64,000 nt of DNA. Source: a virus. Lineage: Duplodnaviria > Caudoviricetes. Both the position numbers and the translations under genes were made by a program. Where the stretch lies: IMG/VR virus record IMGVR_UViG_3300031998_000010; one strand, written 5' to 3'. Shown in pieces: positions 2,993-43,408 of this stretch; the stretch's first letter is position 1, and each line of letters starts with the position of its first letter. Below the pieces are notes generated by a model, which saw nothing but the letters and a program-made list of their open reading frames with translations, was not told the DNA's origin and did no database searches.

Positions 2993-3017
2993 GTTTGCCT
3001 CTAACCATATGAAAGGT

Positions 3018-3058
3018 GGGAGGCTCAACCTCCCTTGTCGGAGTATTTCCGAGTTCCC
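3018..3058 (-). ncRNA. two-hairpin motif copy 1 (GGGAAC-stem-CAA-GGAGG TTGAG CCTCC)
   Basis: second copy at 3301-3349 with compensatory changes in the first stem. Confidence 0.55.
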
Positions 3059-3260
3059 TCTATTTCATTTGTATACCGCAAATATGAGGTGAATGGATTA
3101 TTGCAATTCTCCAATGCGGTTTTGTTACGCAAGATTGTCATCTCTTTATTTCCTAGCACCGTAACATGTACTGTGTATCTTCCCTTATCGAAGTAAGATA
3201 TAAGTACGCCTCATTGTCGTTGAAGGTACGTCTCGTTGTGACATGAGGTGAGATGACCTC

Positions 3261-3298
3261 TGGTGATAGGTTTTTAATAAGCTACCTATCAAACTTAT
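3261..3298 (-). ncRNA. NCCA-ended H-type pseudoknot, copy A
   Basis: ATAAG TTT GATAGGT AG CTTAT TAAAA ACCTATC ACCA. Confidence 0.75.
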
Positions 3299-3300
3299 CT

Positions 3301-3349
3301 GGAGGCTCAACCTCCTTTGTTAGAGTTATCAGGTATTCTCTAAGTTCCC
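3301..3349 (-). ncRNA. two-hairpin motif copy 2
   Basis: GGGAAC TTAGAG..CTCTAA CAA AGGAGG TTGAG CCTCC. Confidence 0.55.
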
Positions 3350-3547
3350 GCTACCCAAACCTGATTAGCACAAGGACGGTGTTAGGCTGTGAAAACGGTG
3401 GGTGACTAATCCTTTTGGCATTTAGGAAACCGTGACTCCCTTTTATTCATACTCTTTGTTTTACAAGGCGATGCCTACCTTTAGCACTATATCGATGCCA
3501 CCCGCTGAAGTTTCGCAGTCACGCAAGGTATTCAGAATATACCTTTT

Positions 3548-3662
3548 TGGTGAAGAAGGATAGGATTTGCACCTATCAGCGATAACATTCCTAGCCTGAC
3601 TCAACCTCATTGTGAGTAGTTATCATTACAGGATAACCTGTCTGCTATTCCAGCACTTCTTC
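3548..3662 (-). ncRNA. tRNA-like RNA (Tyr-type GTA anticodon arm, ~42-nt variable region, 6-bp T stem)
   Basis: acceptor GAAGAAG/CTTCTTC+ACCA; D arm CTG..CAG; TTATC-CTGTAAT-GATAA; T arm GATAGG-TGCAAAT-CCTATC; 115 nt. Confidence 0.7.
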
Positions 3663-3776
3663 ATATAACAGTTTTCATATTGAAAACTTCGGCTTTACCT
3701 ATAAAAGTCACACCCTCGACGCGGAGTGTACGGAATTTCTTATTGAAATGTCTAAAGTCACGTCTATATGACGATT

Positions 3777-3927
3777 TGGTGAAGTAGAGAGGATTCGAAC
3801 CTCTATGTCCTTGATATTGCACCTGCACCCCCAAGAGTCGAACTTGGAGATAGCCGAACTCGAATCGACTCTCACTCAGACTCGTTACTACCGTTCACTT
3901 AGCATTCACCCACTCTGCCACTACTTC
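3777..3927 (-). ncRNA. tRNA-like RNA with two extra internal T-loop hairpins
   Basis: acceptor GAAGTAG/CTACTTC+ACCA; D arm GCA GAGTGGGTGAA TGC; T arm AGAGG-TTCGAAT-CCTCT; 151 nt; no canonical anticodon arm. Confidence 0.7.
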
Positions 3928-4088
3928 ATATAATGCAGATTTGTTTATCGTAAACCTCTTAGGTCACGTTCACCCGTATGAATACTGTTAGAAGTTCTGC
4001 TTCTCCTAGGTACTGCCGTTATTTCGTGTGCTATACCGTATCTCCACGCTAAGATTTTTCTAGAAGAGGTACTTAGGATTAACCTCAT

Positions 4089-4162
4089 TGGCAAGAACAC
4101 AAGGATTTGAACCCTGACTAGCGGTTTTGGAGACCGATGTGCTACCGTTACACCATGTCCTT
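4089..4162 (-). tRNA. trnW: tRNA-Trp (CCA)
   Basis: 74-nt cloverleaf; acceptor AAGGACA/TGTTCTT, anticodon loop CT-CCA-AA, T loop TTCAAAT, encoded 3' GCCA. Confidence 0.92.
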
Positions 4163-4350
4163 GTATTTGCAAAGATTGCTTTGGCGTTGCTTATAAAATA
4201 ATCAGAACCCTAGGCATACGATTATTTTGGTCAGATGTCTTTGCGGTCATCTCAGTAGATTAGAGTTCTACCATCTCGATTTCCTTGCTTTCGGAGACTG
4301 AAATCAACTCCGCTTGTGTATTTAGCCGAGGAACACAAGAAAAACCTTAT

Positions 4351-4447
4351 TGGTGAAGTAGGTTAGGACTCGAACCTAACAGCTTTCGGATAGTTTTCCG
4401 TCATAATAATTATGACCACCTCGCGTCTACCTTTGCGCCACTACTCC
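4351..4447 (-). ncRNA. tRNA-like RNA (Leu/Tyr-type D arm, non-canonical anticodon domain)
   Basis: GGAGTAG/CTACTTC+ACCA; TGGCGCAAAGGTAGACGCG; T arm GTTAGG-TTCGAGT-CCTAAC; 97 nt. Confidence 0.7.
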
Positions 4448-4553
4448 ATATTTTAGTATAACCAAGCCATCTCCCAACAGTTATACTGTACTCCGCACCG
4501 TCCGATTTCTACAACCTCGGTCAAGGGTTTTGACTAGACGGAGTGTCCCAATT

Positions 4554-4649
4554 TGTGAAGTAGGTTAGGATTTGAACCTAACTTAGATATAAATATCCCA
4601 TCCAAATTCTATAAGAATCCGACTGCGTATGCCATTCCGCCACTACTTC
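4554..4649 (-). ncRNA. tRNA-like RNA (Leu-type D arm, elongated anticodon helix)
   Basis: GAAGTAG/CTACTTC+ACA; TGGCGGAATGGCATACGCA; T arm GTTAGG-TTCAAAT-CCTAAC. Confidence 0.68.
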
Positions 4650-4820
4650 ATATCTAATGTGAGTGTGGAGAATCCCCCGAAGTCATCTGCCTCTTCGTAT
4701 TTCCATGTCATTAGGTAGCACTCACAACTACCTGACACTCTAACGGCGAGTGACTACCGCCCTACTGCTCGACATAATCTGCTAAAGAGATTAGCCTTTG
4801 CGCTAACGCAGTATAGGAAT

Positions 4821-4905
4821 TGGCAAGATGGTTCAAGCGTCAGGGCGCGAACCCTCCGTTACTCTCATTTAAGTTAGTACGAACTTGAACGAACTAACCC
4901 ATCTT
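4821..4905 (-). ncRNA. acceptor-stem + GCCA RNA with two internal hairpins
   Basis: AAGATGG/CCATCTT 7-bp stem + GCCA; internal GTTAG..CTAAC and AGGG-TTCGCG-CCCT. Confidence 0.6.
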
Positions 4906-4942
4906 TGGTAATAGGTTTTAAAGAGATACCTATATAAACTCT
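4906..4942 (-). ncRNA. NCCA-ended pseudoknot, copy B
   Basis: AGAG TTTAT ATAGGT AT CTCT TTAAA ACCTAT T ACCA. Confidence 0.65.
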
Positions 4943-5033
4943 TGGTGGGAGTGGCTTATAGTCATATTTGCAAACCCTTGTTTCTCCAAATATTCGTATG
5001 ATATCCTACGAGATATTCAGATTGACTACTCCC
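4943..5033 (-). ncRNA. acceptor-stem + ACCA RNA
   Basis: GGGAGT/ACTCCC + ACCA; begins directly after the CCA of pseudoknot copy C. Confidence 0.55.
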
Positions 5034-5071
5034 TGGTGATAGGTTTTTAGACAAGAACCTACCAAACTTGC
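5034..5071 (-). ncRNA. NCCA-ended pseudoknot, copy C
   Basis: GCAAG TTT GGTAGGTT CTTGT CTAAA AACCTATC ACCA. Confidence 0.75.
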
Positions 5072-5187
5072 GTAGACAATGAAGCAACTATCACTCTACG
5101 GCGGCTCATATTCATTTATATAGCACTCCGAATCTCTTAATAAAGATTAACCTCGTCGGGTTGGTTGCATAGCCATCCGAGTGCTTT

Positions 5188-5223
5188 TGGTGATAAGTTT
5201 TTGAAGAGAACCTACCAAACTCT
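5188..5223 (-). ncRNA. NCCA-ended pseudoknot, copy D
   Basis: AGAG TTT GGTAGGTT CTCT TCAAA AACTTATC ACCA. Confidence 0.75.
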
Positions 5224-5285
5224 ATTCAAGGCACGTTGTGTTTCACTTGCTTTTATATTTTATGTATAATTGCTGTATGTGCCTT

Positions 5286-5323
5286 TGGCGATAGATTTTT
5301 AATAAGAATCTACCAAACTTACT
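5286..5323 (-). ncRNA. NCCA-ended pseudoknot, copy E
   Basis: AGTAAG TTT GGTAGATT CTTATT AAA AATCTATC GCCA. Confidence 0.75.
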
Positions 5324-5331
5324 ATTAAATT

Positions 5332-5340
5332 ATCAAGGTT
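5332..5340 (-). promoter_or_regulatory. AACCTT-class (late-type) promoter heading the RNA array
   Basis: AACCTTGAT about 8 nt upstream of pseudoknot copy E; same core recurs upstream of structural genes. Confidence 0.55.
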
Positions 5341-20475: not shown

Positions 20476-22338
20476 TCATGTTGATTTCCAATCCCAAGTT
20501 ATTGTACCAGAGTCAAATACTTGTATGCACTTGTGTAAATCTACCATCTGCTGTGTTACTTCGCTAGCTTCAATAGCCTGATTATCAGAATTTCTTATCC
20601 ACACACCCTGTTCATCATTGATAGAGACTTCTTTGAATCCCAATGTATAATACAGCTTGCTACTAGCATAAGCCCTATCTGAAGTTGTTATAATATCAGT
20701 AGGACTGTATTCAGAGATAAACTGCTTAAATAATTTGGAAGCACCTCCAACTACGCAAGTATTAAGCTTACTTGCTAACCTAGTTATTTCATATCTATCT
20801 GTATGCTTAATTGCAATTACTTGAATTAGCTCATCCTGATTATAAAGTCCGTAGTGTATGTTGGAATCGCTATATCCTTTAAGATGATTATTCTCTAAAA
20901 ACTTCTTAGCTTCTTCTGAAGACACTTTACAACACTTACACTTACTGGCATGTATCTTATCACTACAACCCAAAATGTTTCGCAACATAGATGTGATAAT
21001 GTTTTTCTTATGAGCCCACTCATATCCGAATATATGAAATAGATGTATTCCTGAAGCTTCACATAAGTCTGTTTTCATTTTATGATAAGTTGAAGGTAGA
21101 GGAGTATCTCCATATGCAGTATATGTAGAATTATGAGTACCCGTAGGATTCATCTCAATTGCTACATTGTACTCAGGTAGATACACATCAAGCTCATAGG
21201 GACTGATAAGAAATCTATTATGTTGTTGAATCTCTAAATCAGGCTTGATATCTTTCAGTATAGCTATGAGCTCTTCTTCAAAATAAGAAAATACTTTATG
21301 TTCAACTAAATCTAGTTTATCTTCATTAGTTAAGAATACTTCAATAGAATGTTCACTAACACCCAATGTAACTTTCAGTTCAGCTATATTGGGTTTATGG
21401 TCAAAATGAGCAGAAATAAAATCTTCAGGGTCACTTAGAAACTGTTTATAATTTTCAGATTTGCTTGGGTCAACCATAATAGATTCACGATGGTTCCAGG
21501 AAGCAGTATAAGAATTAGCTCCATATTTATTTTGGTTAGTTTGTATTAGTTTTGCTTTGACTTTTTGAGACTGAATGGGATGCTCTACACCATATTTTTG
21601 CTTTGATGTTTGTTTAATCTTGCTTTTTATCTTTTCACTTTGAAATACATTATCGACACCATATCGGTCTCGCACAGTATCAATTCGCTTAGCAATAACT
21701 TGAGGAGACTGCAAATGATATCTAACACCATACTTCCTTCTAACAGTATTCGCGTATTTTTTAATGTAGTCATCAGTTTGAGTATACCACTCAACTCCAT
21801 ATTTCTGTTTATTAGTCTCTTTTATCTTATCAATAACTCCAGGAATCTGAAAAGGGTTCTCAACACCTTCGCCATATTTAGCTTGAAGATTTTCTTTCTG
21901 ATGCTGTATAGCAGCTGCTTTATCTGTATGTTGTTGAGCTAAGATATAACGACATTCATCAGAACAAGTTTTATTAGGCTCACGATGAGGGTCATATTCA
22001 AACTGCTTACCGCATAATTCGCAAGTACTGTAATGAGGACCTTCGCAATATTCTTCTCTAATATATCTAGGATGAAACTCTTTTCCGCAACATTTGCACT
22101 TCTTAGTCAACTTACTCCCAGATTCAACTTGACGACGTTTTATTAATTCAACACCACATGCATCACTACAAGTTTTCTTCTGAGGCACTGTAGAACACAC
22201 TCTATCCATTAAATTTCCGCATATTACACAAGGAACTTTAATCGGCCTGTTGCAATTCATCTGACGAGTAGACGTAGGATGAAATGATTGCCCACATACT
22301 TGACATATCTTTGTATAATCAGGACTAAGTTTACTCAT
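20476..22338 (-). CDS. Hef-like homing endonuclease: Zn-finger repeats, KYG repeats, PD-(D/E)xK nuclease, GNAT-like C-terminus
   Basis: CxxC repeats; KYG(V) repeats; ELDVYLPEYNVAIE; FLENNHLKG..YEITRLAS..VVGGASKLF..SDR. Confidence 0.7.
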   Translation of the reverse strand: MSKLSPDYTKICQVCGQSFHPTSTRQMNCNRPIKVPCVICGNLMDRVCSTVPQKKTCSDACGVELIKRRQVESGSKLTKKCKCCGKEFHPRYIREEYCEGPHYSTCELCGKQFEYDPHREPNKTCSDECRYILAQQHTDKAAAIQHQKENLQAKYGEGVENPFQIPGVIDKIKETNKQKYGVEWYTQTDDYIKKYANTVRRKYGVRYHLQSPQVIAKRIDTVRDRYGVDNVFQSEKIKSKIKQTSKQKYGVEHPIQSQKVKAKLIQTNQNKYGANSYTASWNHRESIMVDPSKSENYKQFLSDPEDFISAHFDHKPNIAELKVTLGVSEHSIEVFLTNEDKLDLVEHKVFSYFEEELIAILKDIKPDLEIQQHNRFLISPYELDVYLPEYNVAIEMNPTGTHNSTYTAYGDTPLPSTYHKMKTDLCEASGIHLFHIFGYEWAHKKNIITSMLRNILGCSDKIHASKCKCCKVSSEEAKKFLENNHLKGYSDSNIHYGLYNQDELIQVIAIKHTDRYEITRLASKLNTCVVGGASKLFKQFISEYSPTDIITTSDRAYASSKLYYTLGFKEVSINDEQGVWIRNSDNQAIEASEVTQQMVDLHKCIQVFDSGTITWDWKST

Positions 22339-22440
22339 GATTAACACCTCCTATATCTATATTATAGTATAGAATGGTGCAAAAATAAATGGTATATTTA
22401 TAAACTCAGCGTTATTTGGTTAAATTCAAACAAAATAAAA

Positions 22441-42946: not shown

Positions 42947-43408
42947 TTATGCTTCCTCAATGACCCACCCTTGCTGATTAACTGTTAAAGTCTTATTCTG
43001 CTCTGGTTCAGAATTTAATTCTAGCGAAATCTCTTTACCAAAAGTAGTTACTAACGCTACTGTCATATTAAGCTCATTTGCTTGTGTAGCATAAGTCAAA
43101 CTTGAATTTCCACTGAATAATAAACCATCAGTAAATTGAGTTTTGGACGCTTCAACATCAGGTTCATAAGTTCTAAGTTGAGCTACAATTCTATCTTTAA
43201 TCAAAGCCTTTTCGTTCTCTGTATTATACTTCCAAAGATGTCGCTTTAATCCAACACCAAAATTAGGGTCATTATACATTTCAGTAGGTTCAGATAAAAT
43301 AAGTAATCTAGTTCTTGTTGTTATAGATTTTAAATCTTCATCTACGGAAACTTTATTTCCTGTTATATTAAACATGTTAGGAAATGAAAGAGATGTTGTT
43401 TCTGCCAT
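42947..43408 (-). CDS. gp25-like baseplate wedge subunit
   Basis: LILSEPTEMYNDPNFGVGLKRHL..YEP. Confidence 0.85.
   Translation of the reverse strand: MAETTSLSFPNMFNITGNKVSVDEDLKSITTRTRLLILSEPTEMYNDPNFGVGLKRHLWKYNTENEKALIKDRIVAQLRTYEPDVEASKTQFTDGLLFSGNSSLTYATQANELNMTVALVTTFGKEISLELNSEPEQNKTLTVNQQGWVIEEA

What the first reader, a model, noticed from the sequence alone, without database searches (positions are those of the whole stretch)
3261..5323. Five co-varying ~36-nt H-type pseudoknots ending in NCCA
Seen: copies at 3261, 4906, 5034, 5188 and 5286 share the layout a-UUU-b-a'-A-rich-b'-NCCA. Stem 1 co-varies: ATAAG/CTTAT, AGAG/CTCT (twice), GCAAG/CTTGT, AGTAAG/CTTATT. Stem 2 co-varies: GATAGGT/ACCTATC, GGTAGGTT/AACCTATC, GGTAGGTT/AACTTATC, GGTAGATT/AATCTATC. 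Known: U-rich loop 1 with A-rich loop 3 is classic H-type geometry; a pseudoknotted acceptor arm ending ACCA defines tymovirus tRNA-like structures; ~36-nt pseudoknots are also the unit of ToxI antitoxins, which phage phiTE mimics. Inference: stand-alone acceptor-arm mimics (CCA decoys, aminoacylation substrates, or processing tags defining the 5' end of the next RNA).
Basis: partly seen in the sequence, partly recalled or inferred. Interest (0 to 1): 0.88.

Follow-up and report, generated by a model that had tools for sequence, protein, structure and literature searches.

The report
Phage pseudoknot mimics of tRNA ends
Five 36-38-nt RNA pseudoknots that end in CCA, like the acceptor end of a tRNA, punctuate a phage's array of small RNAs. 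The same fold is kept by compensatory changes in about 60 further copies from related phage contigs, so this is an undescribed RNA family, most likely a portable tRNA-type end for processing or stabilising neighbouring RNAs.

Summary
Five copies lie on the minus strand at the stated places, inside a 2.4-kb non-coding array of tRNAs, tRNA-like RNAs and CCA-ended structured RNAs of a large myovirus. No Rfam family matches them.

A covariance model and pattern scans found 57 more unique copies, 62 in all, in about 30 related viral and metagenomic contigs.
- Stem 1 covaries strongly. All four Watson-Crick pair types occur at two positions, and no shuffle or slid control reaches the observed score.
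- Stem 2 is 96% paired, with 66 G.U cells against 2 A.C cells. The fold is therefore an RNA fold on this strand.
- U(-1), G(+1), a purine discriminator and CCA are almost invariant. These are the known determinants of bacterial RNase P substrates.

Array grammar:
- About 61 of 68 module starts lie directly after an NCCA, and 42 of those NCCA belong to a pseudoknot.
- The three module families without a CCA of their own are followed by a pseudoknot in nearly every case.
- Stem 2 equals the T-stem of the co-resident tRNA-like RNAs.

Best reading (0.55): a cis-acting, portable tRNA-end cassette for RNase P-type processing and 3'-end protection. A trans-acting decoy or chargeable minihelix is not excluded. 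The ToxI, preQ1-I and HDV-like readings fail. No expression data could be obtained. Other first-stage readers of this scan noted the same stretch; none was followed up.

The parts
5286..5323 (-). Pseudoknot copy 1: stem 1 of 6 bp, stem 2 of 8 bp, ends GCCA. It is the first unit of the array.
   Evidence: 53.7 bits
5188..5223 (-). Pseudoknot copy 2: stem 1 of 4 bp, stem 2 of 8 bp with two G.U pairs, ends ACCA.
   Evidence: 51.2 bits
5034..5071 (-). Pseudoknot copy 3, the exemplar. a 5071-5067, loop 1 UUU 5066-5064, b 5063-5056, a' 5055-5051, loop 3 5050-5046, b' 5045-5038, ACCA 5037-5034.
   Evidence: 51.5 bits
4906..4942 (-). Pseudoknot copy 4, degenerate: stem 2 of 6 bp plus a U-U, longer loop 1. 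Its 5' strand starts at the CCA of the unit before it.
   Evidence: 46.1 bits
3261..3298 (-). Pseudoknot copy 5, near the 3' end of the array. Stem 2 is identical to the T-stem of the tRNA-like RNA at 3662-3548.
   Evidence: (54.3 bits)
5224..5285 (-). Module D6: a long hairpin closed by 7 bp, with no CCA of its own. It starts right after the CCA of copy 1 and is followed by copy 2.
5072..5187 (-). Module D5, with no CCA of its own. It starts right after the CCA of copy 2. In relatives it is followed by a pseudoknot at a fixed 120-121 nt.
4943..5033 (-). Helix-closed 91-nt RNA ending ACCA. It starts right after the CCA of copy 3.
4821..4905 (-). Helix-closed 85-nt RNA (module D3) with a 7-bp acceptor-like stem and GCCA. 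It starts right after the CCA of copy 4.
3030..5340 (-). The whole non-coding RNA array in which the copies sit. It holds tRNA-Trp at 4162-4089, four tRNA-like paralogues and further structured RNAs.

Best explanation
The copies are transcribed with the minus-strand small-RNA/tRNA array. Each folds into a compact H-type pseudoknot. Stem 2 (8 bp, sequence-conserved) stacks on stem 1 (4-6 bp, free to vary), giving a 12-14 bp helix that ends in single-stranded RCCA. This mimics the acceptor/T-arm half of a tRNA, and stem 2 is the same helix as the T-stem of the co-resident tRNA-like RNAs. The element acts in cis as a portable tRNA-end cassette, or punctuation mark. It gives array units that lack an acceptor stem an RNase P-recognisable, CCA-terminated boundary. 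Host RNase P then cuts at U(-1)|G(+1) in loop 1, at the 5' end of the unit that abuts the CCA, or at both. The helix-plus-RCCA end is then protected like a tRNA 3' end. Shown: the fold, the conserved determinants and the tiling grammar. Inferred: transcription as one precursor, the enzyme, and whether loop 1 is cut or the pseudoknot stays attached as the 3' arm of the preceding module.
For: Fold:
- Stem 1 position -3 pairs as AU 24, GC 25, CG 5, UG 2 against 4 unpaired.
- Stem 1 position -4 shows all four Watson-Crick types, with 50 of 60 copies paired.
- The helix score is 4.32, against 3.02 +/- 0.12 in 5000 partner shuffles, maximum 3.54.
- The covariation score is 0.269 against 0.160 +/- 0.009 (0/500 shuffles), with slid controls at 0.06-0.11.
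- Stem 2 has 66 G.U cells against 2 A.C cells.
- Pseudoknots at the same array position differ by compensatory changes in stem 1. After module D5, some phages have one stem 1 haplotype and others a different one.

RNase P determinants: U(-1) in 62/62, G(+1) in 60/62, purine discriminator in 62/62, CCA in 58/62. The canonical tRNAs of the same arrays also encode CCA and have U at -1.

Published biochemistry: a small H-type pseudoknot with 3' RCCA is cut in loop 1 by type A and type B bacterial RNase P RNA. U is the preferred -1 base and the RCCA is required (PMC12710915).

Grammar:
- About 61 of 68 module starts lie directly after NCCA. In 42 cases that NCCA belongs to a pseudoknot and in about 19 to another CCA-ended unit.
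- Modules without a CCA are followed by a pseudoknot in nearly every case. D5 does so in 8 of 9 at a fixed 120-121 nt, D7 in all 3 forward copies, and D6 in most, the rest being longer variants.
- Module D10 follows a pseudoknot in the window but a tRNA-like ...ACCA in relative G001.

No CCA-adding enzyme, Ro60 or RtcB was found in four related records, one of them complete. This fits reliance on encoded CCA and host enzymes.
Against:
- RNase P needs no particular stem sequence, yet stem 2, loop 1 and the A-run are sequence-conserved while stem 1 varies freely. A sequence-agnostic descriptor found no pseudoknot with another stem 2 in 255 kb. This hints at a sequence-specific partner or at homogenisation.
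- For modules without an acceptor-like stem (D5, D6, D7), it is unclear which enzyme cuts right after the preceding CCA.
- A plain 12-bp hairpin would serve RNase P equally well, so the need for a pseudoknot is unexplained.
- Relatives were found through stem 2 sequence, so diversity is under-sampled.
Confidence: 0.55

Rival explanations
1. The excised minihelix is itself the product and acts in trans. It would be an abundant acceptor-stem/CCA decoy or sponge for a protein that reads tRNA 3' ends. Candidates are a host defence toxin that modifies or cuts the CCA end, the CCA-adding enzyme, an aminoacyl-tRNA synthetase or EF-Tu. Alternatively it is aminoacylated itself.
For: Stem 2, loop 1 and the A-run are conserved in sequence while stem 1 is free, as expected for a sequence-specific binder. 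There are up to six copies per array. The CCA is tiled so that a cut at the next unit leaves an exact CCA-OH. Some copies stand alone directly after a CCA-ended RNA or tRNA. tRNA acceptor-end toxins implicated in antiphage immunity exist, for example toxSAS enzymes that inspect the acceptor stem (PMC11559606, abstract).
Against: Most copies follow modules that have no CCA, some at a fixed distance. This suggests a cis role. Stem 2 matches no acceptor stem of the array's tRNAs. It matches the T-stem of the co-resident tRNA-like RNAs instead. No target, no charging identity element (no G3.U70) and no abundance data are known.
Confidence: 0.2
2. A DNA-level element. Either it is a weak extended -10 promoter (TGnTAnnnT lies within loop 1 and stem 2), or it is a short conserved boundary that promotes recombination and shuffling of RNA modules.
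For: The conservation pattern of the 5' strand of stem 2 resembles TGn + TAnnnT: fixed TG, free next base, fixed TA, fixed last T. Copy 1 is picked up by the promoter scan with an upstream -35-like hexamer. Module order differs between phages while the boundaries are conserved.
Against: Neither version explains the stem 1 covariation, the complementarity of the two stem 2 strands with 66 G.U against 2 A.C cells, or the conserved RCCA. Neither explains copies that change the promoter's key A yet restore the pair. The promoter scan as a whole is at chance level, 10 found against 8.9 expected. The -10 match is only 3 of 6.
Confidence: 0.05
3. A new small self-cleaving ribozyme that cuts at its own 3' edge, after CCA, to release the next RNA.
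For: The strand order a, b, a', b' is that of P1, P2, P1', P2' of HDV-like ribozymes. Some copies carry a hairpin where P4 would be. Gut phages do use ribozymes next to tRNAs for end processing (PMC10879173).
Against: There is no P3/L3 or P1.1, because b runs straight into a'. No Rfam ribozyme family matches, even at E up to 10. HDV-like ribozymes cut at their 5' edge. A cyclic phosphate on CCA would defeat a tRNA-like end. The element, at 36 nt, is smaller than any known self-cleaver that I am aware of.
Confidence: 0.03

Closest known systems
Pseudoknotted acceptor arm of tymovirus (TYMV) tRNA-like structures
   Same: An H-type pseudoknot builds an acceptor-arm-like coaxial helix that ends in ACCA. 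U lies 5' of the RNase P site in loop 1. The TYMV structure is an RNase P substrate in vitro (PMC12710915).
   Different: Here there is only the 36-nt arm, with no T, D or anticodon domains. The copies are internal and multi-copy in a DNA phage's RNA array, not the 3' end of a plus-strand RNA genome. No Rfam TLS model matches. Charging is unknown.
Synthetic pseudoknot + RCCA substrates of RNase P (biotin aptamer; Kosek et al. 2025, PMC12710915)
   Same: A small H-type pseudoknot with 3' RCCA. Cleavage is in loop 1, U(-1) is preferred, and both type A and type B RNase P RNAs are active.
   Different: Those are engineered and are cut slowly. The authors state that in vivo targeting of pseudoknots by RNase P is an open question. 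The phage family would be a natural case, but cleavage was not tested here.
tRNA punctuation and the mascRNA/MALAT1 type of tRNA-like processing signals
   Same: A tRNA-like element embedded in a longer transcript recruits tRNA-processing enzymes to define the ends of neighbouring RNAs.
   Different: Those elements are full cloverleaf mimics in eukaryotic or organellar transcripts. This one is a half-tRNA pseudoknot in a phage.
Theta (minimal HDV-like) ribozymes next to gut-phage tRNAs (PMC10879173)
   Same: A small phage-encoded pseudoknotted RNA placed at tRNA boundaries and proposed to mature RNA ends.
   Different: Theta ribozymes self-cleave, need P3/P1.1 and a catalytic C, and accompany tRNAs that mostly lack encoded CCA (4.5%). 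Here every RNA encodes CCA and the element lacks the ribozyme core.
ToxI-type (type III) antitoxin repeats
   Same: A pseudoknot unit of about 36 nt in several copies. Phages can carry mimics of ToxI.
   Different: The copies are not tandem: gaps run from 25 to more than 1500 nt. They differ in sequence, end in CCA, and have no ToxN-like gene nearby. Rfam gives no hit.

Membership tests
Tymovirus-type tRNA-like structure | Acceptor arm formed by an H-type pseudoknot ending in (A)CCA | tested here: met
   Covariation of both stems; RCCA in 58/62 copies
Tymovirus-type tRNA-like structure | Complete L-shape with T-, D- and anticodon-arm analogues (about 82 nt), matched by the Rfam model | tested here: not met
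   The element is 36-38 nt; no Rfam hit at E up to 10
Tymovirus-type tRNA-like structure | Sits at the 3' terminus of a plus-strand RNA virus genome and is aminoacylated | tested here: not met
   The copies are internal and multi-copy in a dsDNA myovirus. Aminoacylation cannot be tested with these tools.
Bacterial RNase P substrate | Helix of about 12 bp with U(-1), G(+1) paired to position 72, purine 73 and CCA | tested here: met
   U(-1) 62/62, G(+1) 60/62, purine discriminator 62/62, CCA 58/62; stems of 8 + 4-6 bp
Bacterial RNase P substrate | Is actually cleaved by RNase P | not testable with these tools
   There is only a published analogy (PMC12710915).
ToxI / type III antitoxin RNA | Tandem direct repeats of 34-45 nt | tested here: not met
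   The copies are separated by 25 to more than 1500 nt of other RNAs
ToxI / type III antitoxin RNA | ToxN/AbiQ-type toxin gene directly downstream | tested here: inconclusive
   The flanking ORFs have no such Pfam hit. None was found in relatives G001 and G003, but the control for that family did not ring.
preQ1-I riboswitch | Match to the family model and a 5'-UTR position before a queuosine-related gene | tested here: not met
   No Rfam hit. The copies lie between RNA genes.
HDV-like / theta ribozyme | Nested double pseudoknot with P3/L3, P1.1 and a catalytic C | tested here: not met
   b is followed directly by a', so there is no room for P3 or P1.1. No Rfam hit.
tRNA | Cloverleaf recognised by ARAGORN or Rfam RF00005 | tested here: not met
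   Neither tool reports the copies

The most novel reading that the evidence does not exclude
Two readings are not excluded.

(a) These are the first natural pseudoknot substrates of RNase P in vivo. They would form a general, portable tRNA-end cassette that lets a phage build and shuffle arrays of arbitrary non-coding RNAs using only host RNase P.

(b) More boldly, the released CCA-ended minihelices are trans-acting decoys, or chargeable RNAs, that neutralise a host factor which reads tRNA acceptor ends, for example an antiphage toxin acting on the CCA end.
Probability: 0.2. Interest if true: 0.9.

Novelty: new variant of a known kind. Interest (0 to 1): 0.72.

Why it matters
Pseudoknotted, CCA-ended acceptor-arm mimics were known from plant RNA viruses and from engineered RNase P substrates. 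Kosek et al. (PMC12710915) call it an open question whether RNase P meets pseudoknots in vivo. Here a 36-nt version recurs, with clean covariation, as the boundary element of non-coding RNA arrays in a clade of large, uncultured phages.

That gives three things:
- a simple and testable natural substrate;
- a grammar in which every unit starts right after an NCCA, which explains how such arrays could be resolved;
- an entry point to the many unknown structured RNAs that the cassette flanks.

If the minihelix instead acts in trans, it would be a new kind of phage RNA countermeasure.

Tried and rejected
- **Rfam.** Searches at gathering and at E up to 10 gave only tRNA hits, none on the copies.
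- **First loose pattern scan of viral contigs.** It returned 117 loci that were chance matches with no stem 1 pairing.
- **Relatives found through the neighbouring SbcC-like gene.** They have no RNA array next to that gene. The array of G001 lies elsewhere and was found with the covariance model.
- **GenBank phages.** Only the tRNA-Trp matches.
- **Whole genome of the window.** It is not held.
- **Promoter and terminator scan.** It was at chance level.
- **Weak model hits.** The hits at window 43318-43356, L130 and L159 look like chance: one lies in an ORF, or stem 1 is absent.
- **CCA-adding enzyme, Ro60/TROVE, RtcB.** None was found in the four related records searched. The ToxN search found nothing either, but its control was silent.
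- **Literature.** Searches found no description of such elements in phages.
- **ToxI, preQ1-I, HDV-like ribozyme, integron-attC-like and operator readings.** All were considered and rejected. The reasons are spacing, strand-specific G.U pairs, variable loop length and missing core elements.
Full report
**1. Observation**

Read on the minus strand, the five copies are at 5323-5286, 5223-5188, 5071-5034, 4942-4906 and 3298-3261.
- A degenerate pattern finds four copies against none in 100 shuffles. A 3'-half motif finds all five.
- A covariance model carrying only stem 2 scores the five at 46-54 bits. The next hit in the window, at 21 bits, lies in a coding region and lacks CCA.
- Copy 4906 is a weakened copy.
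- Energy folding recovers stem 2 only. Stem 1 alone is worth -1 to -3 kcal/mol. The case for a pseudoknot therefore has to come from comparison.

**2. Setting**

The copies lie in about 2.4 kb without credible ORFs, between minus-strand genes. The stretch holds:
- tRNA-Trp, and a 95-nt ARAGORN tRNA call;
- a 151-nt RF00005 match with an 88-nt insert;
- several helix-closed RNAs that end in NCCA.

The window is a large myovirus, with baseplate, tail fibre and protease genes and a homing endonuclease. Its capsid protein is 25-27% identical to those of large myoviruses of Bacillus, Streptococcus and Listeria. Nothing close is in GenBank phages. One pseudoknot-bearing contig is binned with a Clostridia MAG. 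Together these hint, weakly, at a Firmicute host.

**3. Relatives**

- The SbcC-like neighbour led to a complete 200-kb relative, G001, at 66% protein identity.
- The model found two copies in G001's RNA array. One has a different stem 1 and a compensated A-U to G-C change in stem 2. The other carries a hairpin of about 50 nt between a' and the A-run.
- A block of about 190 nt is 93% identical between the two arrays. It served as a probe and found two more viral contigs.
- A specific pattern gave the same viral contigs, 31 metagenomic loci and two MAG contigs.
- The model then collected 68 hits, 55 of them unique, plus three in L160. With the window this makes 62 unique copies.

**4. The fold is real and is RNA**

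- In a fixed register, stem 1 position -3 is AU 24, GC 25, CG 5, UG 2, with 4 unpaired.
- Position -4 shows AU 18, GC 16, UA 6, CG 6, GU/UG 4, with 10 unpaired.
- The mean helix score is 4.32, against 3.02 +/- 0.12 when 5' and 3' strands are re-partnered between copies (5000 shuffles, maximum 3.54).
- On the model-made alignment, which is slightly out of register for stem 1 and so conservative, the covariation score is 0.269 against 0.160 +/- 0.009 (0/500). Slid controls give 0.06-0.11.
- Stem 2 is 95.7% paired, with double changes at five of its eight pairs. It has 66 G.U cells against 2 A.C cells, which fixes the strand.
- Pseudoknots at the same array position carry different, internally complementary stem 1 sequences in different phages, for example after modules D5 and D6. 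The changes are therefore repeated events and not one inherited variant.

**5. Anatomy**

Loop 1 is UUU in 61 of 62 copies. Stem 2 is 8 bp, b runs straight into a', stem 1 is 4-6 bp, and loop 3 is A-rich.
- From general knowledge of H-type pseudoknots, 3 nt across the deep groove of a 7-8 bp stem and 3-6 A-rich nt along the shallow groove of a 4-6 bp stem is classical geometry.
- The stacked 12-14 bp equal the acceptor-plus-T helix of a tRNA.
- U(-1) is 62/62, G(+1) 60/62, the discriminator is A 57 and G 5, and CCA is 58/62.
- The second pair of stem 2 is almost never Watson-Crick: G.U 39, U-U 10, A-U 5.
- Stem 2 is the same helix as the 6-bp T-stem of the co-resident tRNA-like RNAs. The element aligns to their 3' half with the acceptor 3' strand deleted and the T-loop enlarged. 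This points to its origin.

**6. Array grammar**

- Across loci, about 61 of 68 starts of recognisable modules lie directly after NCCA. In 42 cases the NCCA belongs to a pseudoknot and in about 19 to another CCA-ended unit.
- Module families without a CCA are followed by a pseudoknot in nearly every case. D5 does so in 8 of 9 instances at a fixed 120-121 nt (the ninth, in L160, at 270 nt). D7 does so in all three forward copies. D6 does so within 49-65 nt in most instances, while longer D6-led variants reach a pseudoknot further on, one only after 418 nt.
- Canonical tRNAs rarely touch a pseudoknot. They all encode CCA and have leaders ending in U.
- Module D10 follows a pseudoknot in the window and a tRNA-like ...ACCA in G001. 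A pseudoknot and a CCA-ended tRNA-like RNA are therefore interchangeable as left neighbours.
- A descriptor that ignores sequence finds 38 sites in 255 kb, all with the canonical stem 2, against 1-3 in shuffles. Stem 2 is therefore constrained in sequence, while stem 1 is constrained only in pairing.

**7. Mechanism**

The best reading is a cis-acting tRNA-end cassette. It gives units without an acceptor stem a boundary that bacterial RNase P can read and a helix-plus-RCCA 3' end.
- Kosek et al. showed that a small H-type pseudoknot tagged with RCCA is cut in loop 1 by type A and type B RNase P RNA. U was the best -1 base and the RCCA was required. They call the in vivo relevance open.
- Unresolved: whether loop 1 is cut, which would release the upstream RNA with a short trailer, or whether the pseudoknot remains as a TYMV-style 3' arm of the preceding module.
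- Also unresolved: what cuts after CCA before modules without an acceptor-like stem.
- The sequence constraint on stem 2 is not explained by RNase P. It keeps a trans-acting role alive, as a decoy or a chargeable minihelix. tRNA-end toxins implicated in antiphage immunity exist.
- A promoter-like TGnTAnnnT inside loop 1 and stem 2 is noted. It cannot explain the covariation or the RCCA.
- The ribozyme, ToxI and preQ1-I readings fail on core features.

**8. Novelty and limits**

- No Rfam family and no paper in the held library describes these elements. The nearest phage analogue in role is the theta ribozyme, which has a different fold and accompanies CCA-less tRNAs.
- Relatives were retrieved through stem 2 sequence, which biases the sample.
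- The hosts are unknown.
- No transcript data could be obtained.
- Related phage records encode no CCA-adding enzyme, Ro60 or RtcB.
- Other first-stage readers of this scan described the same stretch in similar terms; none had been followed up.

Noticed in passing
window 3924-4113 (minus) and L120 1949-2137: A non-coding block of about 190 nt is 92.7% identical between the window and relative G001, although their proteins are about 66% identical. It has no Rfam match and is an unknown, strongly constrained RNA.
   Followed up: partly
window 3548-3662, 3777-3927, 4351-4447, 4555-4649 (minus): Four paralogous tRNA-like RNAs share acceptor, D and T arms but carry very different and long middle parts (97-151 nt). 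One lacks CCA. ARAGORN calls one of them tRNA-Ile(tat), and Rfam tRNA matches one with an 88-nt insert.
   Followed up: partly
L126 6359-6447, L132 3732-3817, L136 2373-2455, L141 84-169, L150 1870-1955, L152 2898-2983, L153 11272-11353: A variant class of the pseudoknot carries a 10-bp hairpin of about 50 nt inserted between a' and the A-run. It is always preceded by a small conserved hairpin module (D7) and another pseudoknot.
   Followed up: partly
arrays in L142, L155, L156, L158 and others: Every canonical tRNA in these arrays encodes CCA, and nearly all have a leader ending ...UAU. They follow the previous CCA after 3-5 nt, whereas non-tRNA modules abut the CCA directly.
   Followed up: partly
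window 3261-3290 versus 3548-3577 (minus); alignment A4: Stem 2 of the pseudoknot is the same 6-bp helix as the T-stem of the tRNA-like RNA at 3662-3548. This suggests that the cassette arose from a T-arm joined directly to ACCA.
   Followed up: yes
window 20476-22347 (minus): A 623-aa HNH/homing-endonuclease-like ORF lies next to the capsid gene region.
   Followed up: no
window 3015-3045 and 3301-3315: A GC-rich hairpin built on the same motif flanks copy 5. One copy lies just upstream of it and one at the 3' end of the array, before the next ORF.
   Followed up: no
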